Below, piece after piece: positions 37,101 to 40,100 of a stretch of DNA of 64,000 bases (position 1 is its first letter; each line of letters starts with the position of its first letter). The position numbers were made by a program. Origin of the DNA: Escherichia coli (GTDB lineage Bacteria; Pseudomonadota; Gammaproteobacteria; Enterobacterales; Enterobacteriaceae); the NCBI RefSeq assembly GCF_003334305.1, contig NZ_QOWS01000001.1, one strand, 5' to 3'.

Positions 37101-40100
37101 AATGAAAACGCTGCTGATTATTGACGCTAATCTCGGTCAGGCACGCGCCTATATGGCGAAGACCCTGCTGGGCGCGGCGGCGCGAAAAGCAAAACTGGAA
37201 ATCATCGACAATCCGAACGACGCAGAAATGGCGATTGTTCTCGGTGATTCCATCCCGAATGACAGCGCGCTGAACGGTAAAAATGTCTGGCTGGGTGATA
37301 TTTCCCGGGCAGTTGCGCACCCTGAGCTGTTCCTGAGTGAAGCCAAAGGCCATGCGAAACCTTACACTGCGCCGGTCACTGCGACAGCACCGGTTGCCGC
37401 CAGCGGTCCGAAACGCGTAGTTGCGGTGACTGCTTGCCCGACTGGCGTAGCACACACCTTTATGGCGGCTGAAGCCATTGAAACCGAAGCGAAAAAACGT
37501 GGCTGGTGGGTGAAAGTTGAAACCCGTGGTTCTGTTGGCGCGGGTAATGCAATCACTCCCGAGGAAGTAGCCGCAGCGGATCTGGTGATTGTGGCGGCAG
37601 ATATCGAAGTGGATCTGGCGAAATTTGCTGGTAAACCGATGTATCGTACCTCTACCGGTCTGGCGCTGAAGAAAACCGCGCAGGAACTGGATAAAGCGGT
37701 TGCTGAAGCAACGCCGTATGAACCGGCGGGCAAAACTCAAACGGCGACCACTGAAGGTAAGAAAGAGAGTGCAGGCGCTTATCGTCACTTGCTAACGGGC
37801 GTCTCTTACATGCTGCCGATGGTCGTTGCTGGTGGTCTGTGTATCGCGCTTTCTTTTGCTTTTGGTATCGAAGCGTTTAAAGAGCCGGGTACGTTGGCAG
37901 CGGCGCTGATGCAGATTGGTGGTGGTTCAGCCTTTGCGCTGATGGTACCGGTACTGGCAGGTTATATTGCCTTTTCCATTGCCGATCGTCCGGGCCTCAC
38001 GCCGGGTCTGATTGGCGGTATGCTGGCGGTCAGCACCGGTTCTGGCTTCATTGGTGGTATTATTGCGGGCTTCCTGGCTGGTTACATTGCGAAGTTAATC
38101 AGTACGCAATTGAAACTGCCACAGAGTATGGAGGCGCTGAAACCGATCCTGATCATTCCGCTAATTTCCAGTCTGGTGGTCGGTCTGGCGATGATCTACC
38201 TGATCGGTAAACCGGTTGCTGGCATTCTCGAAGGGTTGACTCACTGGCTGCAGACCATGGGGACTGCGAATGCGGTTCTGCTGGGGGCGATCCTCGGTGG
38301 CATGATGTGTACTGACATGGGCGGTCCGGTAAATAAAGCAGCGTACGCATTCGGTGTGGGTCTGCTGAGTACTCAAACCTATGGCCCGATGGCGGCGATT
38401 ATGGCGGCAGGTATGGTGCCACCGCTGGCAATGGGCCTGGCAACAATGGTGGCGCGTCGCAAATTCGACAAAGCGCAGCAGGAAGGTGGCAAAGCCGCTC
38501 TGGTACTGGGACTGTGCTTTATTTCGGAAGGTGCAATTCCGTTTGCTGCTCGTGATCCGATGCGTGTGCTGCCGTGCTGTATCGTGGGTGGGGCGCTGAC
38601 TGGCGCAATCTCAATGGCGATTGGTGCGAAACTGATGGCACCGCACGGTGGTCTGTTTGTTCTGCTGATCCCTGGCGCTATTACGCCGGTATTGGGTTAC
38701 CTGGTAGCAATTATTGCCGGTACGCTGGTGGCGGGTTTGGCCTATGCCTTCCTGAAACGTCCGGAAGTGGACGCAGTAGCGAAAGCAGCGTAATAAAAGG
38801 TGTGTTACAGGGCAGAAATTTCCTGCCCTGTATCATTGGATGAGCGCAAAGGGAATGACCGGTTTGTAAATGTAATTTTATGAATTTAAATGGTTTTATC
38901 TTTCAGTAGAAACCTGAAACGTTCATCAAACACTAAGGTTATTTCCTCAAGGGCAGATTATTTTCTGCCCTTTTTTAGTGTTCCTGTTCTGTGCATCCCG
39001 TCACAAATTCCTCGCTTTTGTAATTCAGGCATTTAATCGCATTTTGTGAGCCTGCTCAAATCTGCCCATTTTGCCTCTCTGGCGGTAATTTACTTTACGT
39101 AAAACATGCATACTATGAGCACATGTTTAAATATGAACACATGTTTAAACCGTCTTTGCAGTATCTATATTCTTGTGGATTGACAGGGTTGGTAATTTTT
39201 TACCAGAGGACGTGCTATGCGCGAAAAGGATTATGTCGTAATTATAGGTTCGGCGAATATTGATGTCGCCGGATATTCACATGAATCATTAAATTATGCG
39301 GATTCAAATCCAGGTAAAATAAAATTTACGCCTGGTGGAGTAGGGCGCAATATTGCACAAAACCTGGCGTTGCTGGGTAACAAAGCCTGGCTACTGAGCG
39401 CAGTAGGCAGTGATTTTTATGGTCAATCGCTGCTAACGCAAACCAATCAATCTGGCGTTTATGTCGATAAATGCCTGATTGTGCCGGGAGAAAATACGTC
39501 TAGTTATTTATCATTACTCGATAATACCGGTGAAATGCTGGTTGCTATAAATGACATGAATATTAGCAACGCTATTACAGCTGAATATCTCGCACAGCAC
39601 CGTGAATTTATTCAGAGGGCAAAGGTCATTGTCGCAGACTGTAATATCAGTGAAGAGGCACTGGCATGGATTCTGGATAATGCCGCCAACGTACCCGTAT
39701 TTGTCGATCCGGTTTCAGCGTGGAAATGTGTCAAAGTGCGCGACCGTCTAAATCAGATCCACACTCTGAATCCAAACCGCCTTGAAGCGGAAACACTGAG
39801 TGGGATTGCGCTGTCAGGGCGTGAAGATGTGGCAAAAGTTGCTGCCTGGTTCCATCAACATGGCCTGAACCGACTGGTATTGAGCATGGGCGGCGATGGC
39901 GTTTATTACAGTGATATCAGCGGTGAAAGTGGCTGGTCTGCCCCGATCAAAACCAATGTTATTAATGTTACCGGAGCGGGCGATGCCATGATGGCGGGAC
40001 TTGCTTCGTGTTGGGTAGACGGAATGCCGTTTGCCGAATCTGTTCGTTTCGCACAGGGATGTTCGTCAATGGCGCTCTCCTGTGAATACACCAATAACCC

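What the first reader, a model, noticed from the sequence alone, without database searches (positions are those of the whole stretch)
39092..39152. Unassigned operator-like repeats in the psuK promoter
About 65-100 bp upstream of psuK there is a perfect 10-bp palindrome (TTTACGTAAA) followed by two direct copies of CACATGTTTAAA spaced about 19 bp apart, each containing the palindromic hexamers ACATGT and TTTAAA. I know of no regulator assigned to this architecture. It could be the operator for a pseudouridine-responsive regulator, possibly the adjacent yeiL.
Basis: seen in the sequence. Interest (0 to 1): 0.35.

Follow-up and report, generated by a model that had tools for sequence, protein, structure and literature searches.

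The report
Pseudouridine operon operator, probably YeiI's
The repeats upstream of the E. coli pseudouridine-breakdown genes are a conserved two-site operator over the promoter, and comparative evidence points to the uncharacterised kinase-like DNA-binding protein YeiI, not the neighbouring YeiL, as the protein that binds them.

Summary
TTTACGTAAA lies at 39094-39103. Two exact CACATGTTTAAA copies lie at 39120 and 39138, 18 bp apart rather than 19, inside an 18-bp tandem unit.

The conserved signal sits in a different register: a 12-bp palindrome RAACA-NN-TGTTY, present twice (39117-39128 and 39135-39146). The TTTACGTAAA palindrome is E. coli-specific and overlaps the -35 box and spacer.

This pair recurs directly upstream of pseudouridine operons in Escherichia, Citrobacter, Enterobacter, Buttiauxella, Yersinia, Serratia, Pasteurella, Aquitalea, Paludibacterium and two distant metagenomic lineages. 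The gene that always accompanies it encodes a winged-helix domain joined to a PfkB pseudouridine-kinase-like domain. That gene is fused as the first operon gene in most lineages. In Enterobacteriaceae it is the separate gene yeiI (45671-46759, minus strand). yeiL is missing from most of these loci.

The sites fall at about +1 and +19 of a promoter with -35 TTTACT, -10 TACTAT and a CRP-like site near -70.5. A published recurrent gut-adaptive SNP maps to the -35 box and turns it into TTGACT.

The most likely mechanism is YeiI repression relieved by pseudouridine. This rests on comparative inference only; no binding or expression experiment was available.

The parts
39045..39060 (+). CRP-like site TGTGA-GCCTGC-TCAAA. 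Its centre at 39052.5 lies about -70.5 from the predicted start of transcription.
   Evidence: Sequence. TTGTGA...TCA.ATCT is invariant in all 12 aligned enterobacterial promoters. The pattern sits at a fixed 72 bp before site 1 in L001-L016 and L022. In the window there are 3 pattern matches, which represent 2 sites, against 0.5 expected. CRP binding is inferred from the consensus and was not tested.
39089..39094 (+). Predicted -35 hexamer TTTACT.
   Evidence: 7 of 9 positions of ATTTACTTT are invariant. The same TTTACT lies upstream of the sites in Yersinia, Serratia, Xenorhabdus and the Salmonella island. The recurrent gut-adaptive SNP 2257444 A->C (PMC9509342, Supplementary Data 8) maps to window position 39091. 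On the psuK strand it is T->G and gives TTGACT.
39094..39103 (.). It overlaps the -35 box and spacer and is not conserved as a palindrome.
   Evidence: Only 4 of 10 positions are invariant, and 60 such palindromes occur in the window.
39111..39116 (+). Predicted -10 hexamer TACTAT, 16 bp after the -35. The predicted start of transcription is about 39123.
   Evidence: The TAyyAT pattern is conserved. The spacing is read. The start site is inferred, and no TSS data were found.
39117..39128 (.). Operator site 1, GAGCA-CA-TGTTT (9/10 match to RAACANNTGTTY), at about -6 to +6.
39135..39146 (.). Operator site 2, GAACA-CA-TGTTT (10/10 match), at about +13 to +24.
39114..39149 (+). Two 18-bp tandem units (17/18 identical).
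   Evidence: In other genera and in the minority E. coli allele, site 2 is GAACATGTGCTC followed by TAAT.
39190..39205 (+). Conserved inverted repeat TGGTA-ATTTTT-TACCA just before the Shine-Dalgarno sequence (GAGGA, 39206-39210), in the predicted 5' UTR.
   Evidence: Read by eye from the rows of alignments A2 and A4. The fourth pair is T-A in E. coli, C-G in other genera and T-G in E. albertii. RNAalifold did not predict this stem. The MFE fold contains the stem. Function is unknown.
39217..42428 (+). The regulated operon: psuK (39217-40158), psuG (40146-41084) and psuT (41178-42428).
45671..46759 (-). yeiI, the candidate regulator. It has an Lrp/AsnC-type winged helix-turn-helix (residues 3-47) and a PfkB domain close to PsuK. 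It lies 2 bp downstream of nfo.
   Evidence: Pfam HTH_24 E=6.4e-10 and PfkB E=1.4e-68. NCBIfam PRK09954. Structure model and fold search. Ligand residues.
It is rejected as the cognate factor.

Best explanation
The repeats are a two-site operator. Each site is a 12-bp palindrome RAACA-NN-TGTTY, and the two sites start 18 bp apart. They lie over the start of transcription of a weak, CRP-assisted sigma-70 promoter for psuKGT: a CRP-like site near -70.5, -35 TTTACT, -10 TACTAT, and sites at about -6/+6 and +13/+24.

The protein that binds them is most likely YeiI. YeiI is a dimeric PfkB-fold protein with an N-terminal Lrp/AsnC-type winged helix, and its pocket keeps every residue that PsuK uses to hold pseudouridine.

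Without pseudouridine, YeiI would occupy both sites and block RNA polymerase. Binding of pseudouridine, or its 5'-phosphate, would close the kinase-type lid as it does in PsuK, shift the two DNA-binding domains and release the DNA.

In most other lineages a single protein is both the pseudouridine kinase and the auto-repressor of its own operon. In Enterobacteriaceae a duplication split these roles into PsuK (no winged helix) and YeiI (winged helix kept, GAGD changed to GADD).

What is shown: the motif, its conservation, its position, its co-occurrence with the winged-helix kinase, and conservation of the ligand residues. What is inferred: binding itself, the sign of regulation, the effector and the exact start site.
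For: 1. Footprint. CRP-like site, -35, -10, site 1 and site 2 are conserved islands in 12 enterobacterial promoters whose flanks have diverged.

2. Same architecture in promoters that cannot be aligned with E. coli:
- Yersinia: AGACACATGTTT + AAACAAGTGTCC.
- Serratia: AAACTCATGTTT + AAACAAGTGTCC.
- Pasteurella: AAACAAAAGTTG + AAACAGGTGTTG. These three pairs are spaced 18 bp.
- Aquitalea: AAACAAATGTTT + AAACATTTGTTT.
- Paludibacterium: AAACAAATGTTT + GGACAATTGTTT. These two pairs are spaced 19 bp.

3. Statistics. In 254 kb there are 14 pairs at 18-19 bp, and 13 of them are at psu promoters. Shuffled sequence gives a mean of 0.87 and a maximum of 4. In 32 sites, positions 2-5 and 8-11 are nearly invariant while the central two vary.

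4. Reverse test. A metagenome scan for the bare pattern returned 120 loci (840 kb). Two have the pair immediately upstream of winged-helix-PfkB genes followed by psuG, and those proteins are only 31-42% identical to the known ones.

5. Partner gene. In Yersinia, Serratia, Pasteurella, Xenorhabdus, Aquitalea and Paludibacterium the winged-helix-PfkB gene is the first gene of the operon. In Citrobacter, Buttiauxella, Raoultella, Enterobacter and E. albertii, yeiI lies directly after psuT on the opposite strand. In a Salmonella island yeiI and psuKGT have moved together without nfo.

6. YeiI domains. Pfam HTH_24 plus PfkB. The N-terminal model has pLDDT 81 and superposes on Lrp/AsnC DNA-binding domains at 1.1 A over 49 residues. 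The recognition helix and wing, ISRSxVAxHIMxLxxKGxIKGKGYIL, are conserved across all lineages.

7. Ligand pocket. N14, D16, S30, Y97, N112, N143, K170 and D256 of PsuK are invariant in YeiI. These are the pseudouridine contacts reported in PMC9061257.

8. Promoter position. The recurrent adaptive SNP (PMC9509342) maps to 39091 and turns TTTACT into TTGACT.

9. No other operator-like site occurs in the neighbouring intergenic regions.
Against: - There is no direct binding, expression or start-site evidence. One TSS data set held nothing for psuK.
- In the mouse-gut experiments the parallel target was the promoter SNP. yeiI loss of function is not listed among the parallel targets, whereas other repressors (frlR, dgoR, srlR) were hit repeatedly. 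This fits if the inducer is already present in the gut, but it does not support simple repression.
- An E. coli-only promoter-like match (-35 TTTAAA at 39144, -10 TATATT at 39166) would place the sites upstream, in an activator-like position.
- Half-sites only 6 bp apart, centre to centre, are unusually close for a winged-helix dimer.
- The proximal sites are degenerate in Xenorhabdus, and site 2 is weak in the Salmonella island.
- The enterobacterial promoters are homologous to each other, so they count as one lineage.
- No negative control was obtained from pseudouridine operons that lack a winged-helix kinase.
Confidence: 0.68

Rival explanations
1. YeiL, the adjacent CRP/FNR-family regulator, binds the repeats.
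For: yeiL lies just downstream of psuT in this window. Its targets are unknown.
Against: yeiL is absent from the psu locus in E. albertii, Citrobacter, Raoultella, Buttiauxella, Enterobacter, the Salmonella island and all fused-type loci, yet all of them keep the operator pair. From general knowledge of the family, CRP/FNR proteins recognise 5-N4-5 or 5-N6-5 palindromes rather than 5-N2-5. No similar site occurs in the yeiL-rihB intergenic region.
Confidence: 0.03
2. The sites belong to another transcription factor that is not linked to the locus, for example a nucleoside regulator such as DeoR or CytR, or an unknown protein.
For: The stretch between the sites, TGTTTAAATATGAACA, fits TGTT-N8-AACA, as does the DeoR operator recalled from memory. 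No experiment ties YeiI to this DNA.
Against: The internal N2 spacing never changes, while the distance between sites is 18 or 19 bp and the sequence between them varies. The 12-bp palindrome is therefore the recognition unit. The motif follows the winged-helix-PfkB gene into Betaproteobacteria and into AT-rich metagenomic lineages. The TGCAA-type CytR cores near 39156 are not conserved.
Confidence: 0.12
3. YeiI binds the sites but acts as an activator or dual regulator. The E. coli promoter would then be the downstream one (-35 TTTAAA at 39144, -10 TATATT at 39166), which puts the sites at about -60 and -40.
For: The consensus scan finds that promoter-like match. yeiI loss of function was not among the parallel gut-adaptive targets.
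Against: That match is not conserved outside the main E. coli allele. The TTTACT/TAyyAT pair is conserved. The adaptive SNP improves TTTACT to TTGACT. In the fused-type operons the sites lie 15-33 bp before the start codon and overlap the -10/+1 region.
Confidence: 0.1
4. The repeats act at the RNA level, as a 5' UTR hairpin or attenuator formed by the repeated inverted segments.
For: The predicted 5' UTR folds better than shuffled sequence (z = -2.9). It includes an 11-bp stem made from the repeats.
Against: That stem exists only in the main E. coli allele. In other genera the arms are not complementary, yet AACA and TGTT are kept. No Rfam family matches.
Confidence: 0.03
5. It is a recent tandem duplication or a chance repeat with no function.
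For: The two E. coli units are 17/18 identical, which suggests recent homogenisation.
Against: The two-site arrangement predates the homogenisation. It is present in both E. coli alleles (4193 and 1194 genomes) and in distant taxa.
Confidence: 0.02

Closest known systems
ROK-family repressors (NagC, Mlc, XylR)
   Same: An N-terminal winged helix is joined to a sugar-kinase-fold domain that senses the pathway metabolite. Paralogous active kinases and repressors coexist in the same family. Palindromic operators lie at catabolic promoters that also use CRP. This comparison rests on general knowledge of the family.
   Different: The sensor fold here is PfkB/ribokinase, not ROK/ASKHA. The DNA-binding domain is the short Lrp/AsnC type (HTH_24). 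The operator is a pair of 12-bp palindromes rather than the longer sites recalled for NagC and Mlc.
Bifunctional enzyme-repressors (BirA, NadR, archaeal RbkR)
   Same: One polypeptide carries out a reaction of the pathway and represses that pathway's genes through an N-terminal helix-turn-helix. The fused winged-helix pseudouridine kinases of Yersinia, Pasteurella and Aquitalea look like this, because they keep the GAGD catalytic motif.
   Different: The enzyme folds and ligands differ. In E. coli the two roles appear to be split between PsuK and YeiI. Whether YeiI still phosphorylates anything is unknown, because it carries G255D.
CopY/BlaI/MecI 'cop box' operators (TACAnnTGTA)
   Same: The geometry is the same: four-base half-sites separated by two bases and bound by a winged-helix dimer. 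The cop-box consensus appears in the PMC7253601 abstract returned. It shows that such close half-sites can work.
   Different: YeiI's domain matches HTH_24 and Lrp/AsnC folds, not the BlaI/CopY family. The half-site sequence and the effector logic are also different.
Class I CRP-dependent catabolic promoters with a specific repressor (lac, malT type)
   Same: A CRP-like site lies upstream of a weak -35, and a specific operator lies over the start site. A site near -70.5 falls in the same helical phase as recalled class I positions.
   Different: CRP binding is predicted from sequence only. The operator is double.

Membership tests
Repressor operator overlapping a sigma-70 promoter | Dyad-symmetric site(s) conserved among orthologous promoters | tested here: met
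   RAACA-NN-TGTTY occurs twice and is conserved in 12 enterobacterial promoters plus at least 5 promoter lineages that cannot be aligned with them.
Repressor operator overlapping a sigma-70 promoter | Site overlaps the -35/-10/+1 region | tested here: inconclusive
   The sites start directly after the conserved -10 TACTAT. The -35 assignment is supported by the TTTACT to TTGACT adaptive SNP. No measured start site was available, and a rival promoter-like match exists.
Repressor operator overlapping a sigma-70 promoter | Bound by a specific protein, with expression rising when the protein or site is removed | not testable with these tools
   This needs EMSA or footprinting and reporter assays in a yeiI deletion.
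YeiL (CRP/FNR family) target site | Site co-occurs with the regulator gene across genomes | tested here: not met
   yeiL is found only in the E. coli, Escherichia sp. and E. whittamii loci. It is absent from 13 other loci that keep the site pair, or in Xenorhabdus and the Salmonella island at least one strong site.
YeiL (CRP/FNR family) target site | 5-N4-5 or 5-N6-5 palindrome typical of the family | tested here: not met
   The conserved unit is 5-N2-5. The family geometry is taken from general knowledge.
CRP class I activated promoter | TGTGA-N6-TCACA-like site, conserved | tested here: met
   TGTGAGCCTGCTCAAA at 39045-39060 is conserved at a fixed distance in all enterobacterial loci.
CRP class I activated promoter | Site centred near -61.5, -71.5, -82.5 or -92.5, and cAMP-CRP dependence | tested here: inconclusive
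   The centre at 39052.5 gives about -70.5 from the inferred start at 39123. CRP dependence was not testable.
Enzyme-derived one-component regulator (ROK, BirA, NadR or RbkR type) | DNA-binding domain fused to an enzyme-fold sensor domain | tested here: met
   HTH_24 at residues 3-47 and PfkB at 57-347. The model has three helices and a wing. No solved structure has this architecture.
Enzyme-derived one-component regulator (ROK, BirA, NadR or RbkR type) | Sensor pocket keeps the residues that bind the pathway metabolite | tested here: met
   N14, D16, S30, Y97, N112, N143, K170 and D256 of PsuK are invariant in YeiI.
Enzyme-derived one-component regulator (ROK, BirA, NadR or RbkR type) | Regulator gene linked to the genes it controls | tested here: met
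   It is the first operon gene in six genera, and it is adjacent or co-transferred in six others.
DeoR operator (TGTTAGAA-TTCTAACA, recalled from memory) | 16-bp palindrome with a fixed N8 core and conserved AGAA/TTCT | tested here: not met
   The sequence between the sites varies, and the spacing is 19 bp in Aquitalea and Paludibacterium.

The most novel reading that the evidence does not exclude
YeiI-type proteins (an Lrp/AsnC-type winged helix joined to a PfkB pseudouridine-kinase fold) may form an undescribed family of metabolite-sensing regulators. The ancestral form would be a bifunctional pseudouridine kinase that represses its own operon through paired RAACA-NN-TGTTY sites. In Enterobacteriaceae a duplication would have separated the jobs. 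PsuK lost the winged helix, and its N-terminus MREK-DYVV looks like an in-frame deletion. YeiI kept the DNA-binding domain and the pseudouridine pocket but changed the catalytic GAGD motif to GADD. This would assign a function and an effector to one of the remaining uncharacterised E. coli transcription factors. It would also explain a promoter that is hit repeatedly during adaptation to the mouse gut.
Probability: 0.55. Interest if true: 0.65.

Novelty: new variant of a known kind. Interest (0 to 1): 0.55.

Why it matters
- No regulator is assigned to pseudouridine catabolism in E. coli in the literature I could search. YeiI is still listed as an uncharacterised sugar kinase or a hypothetical transcription factor (PMC9061257, PMC12506659, PMC6055005).
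- This analysis gives a specific, cheap-to-test pairing of regulator, operator and effector.
- It gives a mechanistic reading of the psuK/fruA SNP that sweeps repeatedly in gut-colonising E. coli: a -35 up-mutation in a repressed, CRP-assisted promoter.
- It offers an example of a bifunctional enzyme-repressor splitting into an enzyme and a sensor.
- A pseudouridine-responsive repressor-operator pair could also serve as a biosensor for pseudouridine production strains.

Tried and rejected
- **Known RNA family:** Rfam found nothing meaningful in 38700-39300.
- **RNA hairpin from the repeats:** it is specific to E. coli.
- **Other motif hits in the window:** the matches at 23497 (inside the 364-aa ORF 23239-24333) and 49063-49092 (inside the 293-aa ORF 48841-49722, yeiE by gene order) lie in coding sequence and are probably chance.
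- **Start-site data:** the supplements of PMC3415461 hold nothing for psuK, yeiC or b2166. The genomic SELEX promoter lists gave no peak in the fruA-psuK spacer.
- **Effect of the SNP on psuK expression:** Supplementary Data 16 of PMC9509342 is not held.
- **Negative control:** the PsuG word-index search was saturated with near-identical enterobacterial proteins. The two diverse representatives I looked up sit on 1.3-kb contigs with no context.
- **Other regulators, compared from memory:** TyrR, ArgR, NsrR, GlpR, DeoR, CytR and LacI-family boxes. None fits the conserved positions.
- **Sigma-54 reading of TGGCA-N-TTGCC before the Shine-Dalgarno sequence:** rejected, because the GG-GC spacing varies between 9 and 10 nt and the main E. 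coli allele lacks the GC.
- **Literature:** searches for 'PsuR', for yeiC with CRP, and for pseudouridine with PfkB and helix-turn-helix found nothing relevant.
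Full report
**Observation.** The window is E. coli. The gene order is fruBKA, then psuK (39217-40158), psuG, psuT, yeiL (minus strand), rihB, nupX, yeiI (minus strand) and nfo. TTTACGTAAA is at 39094-39103. CACATGTTTAAA is at 39120-39131 and again at 39138-39149. The spacing is 18 bp, and the copies form part of an 18-bp tandem unit at 39114-39149 with 17/18 identity. The 12-mer direct repeat is the only one of its kind in the window, against 0.13 expected. Perfect 10-bp palindromes are common, with 60 in the window.

**Footprinting within and beyond E. coli.** The intergenic region exists as two deeply diverged alleles in E. coli. 4193 complete genomes carry the window type and 1194 carry an E. 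albertii-like type. I aligned both alleles with Escherichia sp., E. whittamii, E. albertii, Citrobacter (4), Raoultella and Buttiauxella (2). Five conserved islands stand out against diverged flanks:
- a CRP-like site TGTGA-N6-TCAnA (39045-39060);
- ATTTACTTT (39088-39096);
- TAyyAT (39111-39116);
- two 12-mers at 39117-39128 and 39135-39146.

The palindromic form of TTTACGTAAA is lost outside E. coli. TTTAAA and the exact CACATG are not conserved either. What is conserved is RAACA-NN-TGTTY, with a variable central dinucleotide. The near-identity of the two E. coli units is a lineage-specific homogenisation. Elsewhere site 2 reads GAACATGTGCTC.

**Which regulator.** Citrobacter, Buttiauxella, Raoultella, Enterobacter and E. 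albertii have no yeiL, rihB or nupX beside psuKGT. In those genomes psuT is followed directly by yeiI-nfo on the other strand. In a Salmonella island, yeiI and psuKGT sit together in a completely different context, without nfo.

YeiI has a winged helix-turn-helix (HTH_24, residues 3-47, E=6.4e-10) and a PfkB domain. The PDB holds only the kinase part, as PsuK; no structure has this architecture. A model of the N-terminal 62 residues (pLDDT 81) has three helices and a wing. It superposes best on Lrp/AsnC-type DNA-binding domains, at 1.1 A over 49 residues.

Homologues with the same two domains are widespread. In Yersinia, Serratia, Pasteurella, Xenorhabdus, Aquitalea and Paludibacterium the winged-helix kinase is itself the first gene of the operon, followed by psuG and usually psuT.

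**The motif follows the winged-helix kinase.** Directly upstream of these fused genes lies the same pair of sites:
- Yersinia, AGACACATGTTT + AAACAAGTGTCC;
- Serratia, AAACTCATGTTT + AAACAAGTGTCC;
- Pasteurella, AAACAAAAGTTG + AAACAGGTGTTG (these three at 18 bp);
- Aquitalea, AAACAAATGTTT + AAACATTTGTTT;
- Paludibacterium, AAACAAATGTTT + GGACAATTGTTT (these two at 19 bp).

In Yersinia and Serratia the annotated start sits inside site 1. The alignment shows that the real start is probably the second Met, MTSREKQIL.

Across 254 kb of fetched sequence there are 14 pairs at 18-19 bp spacing, and 13 of them are at psu promoters. Block-shuffled sequence gives a mean of 0.87 and a maximum of 4. Among 32 sites, positions 2-5 (AACA) and 8-11 (TGTT) are nearly invariant.

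As a reverse test I scanned metagenome contigs for AACANNTGTT-N8/9-AACANNTGTT. Most of the 120 loci returned (840 kb) are expected chance hits. Two, L080 and L093, have the pair immediately upstream of winged-helix-PfkB genes followed by psuG. Those proteins are only 31-42% identical to the Aquitalea and Yersinia proteins. No operator-like site occurs in the other intergenic regions around yeiL, rihB, nupX, yeiI or nfo.

**Effector.** PMC9061257 reports the PsuK residues that contact pseudouridine: N14, D16, S30, Y97, N112, M114, N143 and K170. It names D256 as the catalytic base, and it reports that pseudouridine binding closes the dimer. All of these residues except M114 (T in YeiI) are invariant in YeiI and in the fused kinases.

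The fused kinases are 57-59% identical to PsuK (48% for Aquitalea) and keep NVTGAGD. The YeiI group is 38% identical to PsuK and has DSFGADD, a G255D change. YeiI's first 62 residues, which hold the winged helix, are 68% identical to those of Yersinia. Its full length is only 52% identical. YeiI therefore most likely still binds pseudouridine. Whether it is catalytically active is open.

**Promoter and mechanism.** The conserved hexamers TTTACT (39089-39094) and TACTAT (39111-39116) are 16 bp apart. They predict a start near 39123. That places the sites at about -6/+6 and +13/+24, and the CRP-like site at about -70.5.

The same TTTACT lies upstream of the sites in Yersinia, Serratia, Xenorhabdus and the Salmonella island. 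In L080 site 1 lies between a TTGTCT and a TATAAT.

Independent experimental support comes from Frazao et al. 2022 (PMC9509342). One SNP, 2257444 A->C in the psuK/fruA spacer, arose in 5 of 7 mice and changed growth. The fimA and srlR codon positions show that these coordinates are NC_000913.2. Adding 1978 gives 2259422 in NC_000913.3. That is 126 bp upstream of the psuK ATG and equals window position 39091, and the plus-strand base there is A. On the psuK strand the change is T->G, which turns TTTACT into TTGACT. This is the classic form of a -35 up-mutation. The direction of the expression change is not in the text I could read.

Sites over the start of transcription point to repression. Relief by pseudouridine is inferred from the conserved pocket and from the ligand-induced closure of PsuK.

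**Caveats.**
- No binding, expression or start-site data exist.
- An E. coli-only promoter-like match further downstream would make the sites activator-like.
- yeiI loss of function is not among the parallel gut targets.
- Half-sites 6 bp apart are unusually close, although cop-box operators (TACAnnTGTA) share that geometry.
- The proximal sites are degenerate in Xenorhabdus.
- I obtained no negative control from psu operons that lack a winged-helix kinase.

**Comparison and novelty.** In function this resembles ROK repressors and bifunctional enzyme-repressors such as BirA, NadR and RbkR, working at a CRP-assisted catabolic promoter. It is not a YeiL, DeoR or CytR site.

In the searchable literature YeiI is uncharacterised and no regulator of psuKGT is described. 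I could not check curated regulon databases. I rate this a new variant of a known kind, with moderate interest. It is a concrete and testable assignment for an orphan E. coli regulator, and it gives a mechanistic reading of a recurrent adaptive mutation.

Noticed in passing
window 39769-39771 (psuK codon 185): PsuK in this strain has Asn at position 185 where K-12 and all other homologues examined have Lys. It also has G129R. PMC9061257 reports that K185A raises the Km for ATP 54-fold and lowers kcat 100-fold, so this strain's kinase may be impaired.
   Followed up: partly
window 38794-39216; L005 2575-3028: The fruA-psuK spacer exists as two deeply diverged alleles in E. coli. 4193 complete genomes carry the window type and 1194 carry an E. 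albertii-like type. The second type contains a segment repeated elsewhere in the genome (several places per genome), possibly a REP-like repeat. Both alleles keep the CRP-like site, the -35 box and the operator pair.
   Followed up: partly
window 39190-39205: A conserved 5-bp inverted repeat, TGGYA-N6/7-TRCCA, lies directly before the Shine-Dalgarno sequence. One pair changes on both sides (T-A in E. coli, C-G elsewhere, T-G in E. albertii). This looks like an RNA hairpin in the 5' UTR. Its function is unknown. A sigma-54 reading was considered and rejected.
   Followed up: partly
window 42496-45615: The yeiL-rihB-nupX block lies between psuT and yeiI only in E. coli, Escherichia sp. and E. 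whittamii. NupX is 88-89% identical to PsuT. The block therefore looks like an insertion and duplication into an older psuKGT-yeiI arrangement.
   Followed up: partly
window 39217-39240; L017 7028-7060: PsuK begins MREK-DYVVIIG. The winged-helix kinases begin M..REK(Q/E)IL and reach the kinase domain at ..(S/E)YVVV. PsuK therefore looks like an in-frame deletion of the winged helix from a fused ancestor.
   Followed up: partly
window 38803-38835, 38913-38924, 38949-38980: Two related G+C-rich hairpins (AGGGCAGA...TCTGCCCT) lie 142 bp apart downstream of fruA, and the second is followed by a T-run. Between them, TGAAACGTTCAT fits the Cra (FruR) box consensus as I recall it, but K-12 has a degenerate version (TTCAAACGTTCAT). 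The interval could be a fruA 3' UTR fragment or a small RNA.
   Followed up: no
window 49063-49092: An operator-like pair, GAACAGGCGGTT and GAACAACTGTTT (8/10 and 10/10 matches, 18 bp apart), lies inside the 293-aa ORF 48841-49722, which is yeiE by gene order. It is probably chance, since about one such pair is expected in the sequence scanned.
   Followed up: no
L017 6752-6767; L018 about 6745-6760; L024 about 6714-6730: Yersinia has a perfect 16-bp palindrome, CCAAACACTTGTTTGG, about 275 bp upstream of the operon. Weaker versions occur at similar positions in Serratia and Xenorhabdus. This could be a distal auxiliary operator, possibly for looping.
   Followed up: no
window 45671-47619: yeiI starts 2 bp after the nfo stop codon and no intergenic promoter is evident. 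The putative regulator is therefore probably co-transcribed with endonuclease IV. That arrangement is kept in Citrobacter, Enterobacter and Buttiauxella but not in the Salmonella island.
   Followed up: no
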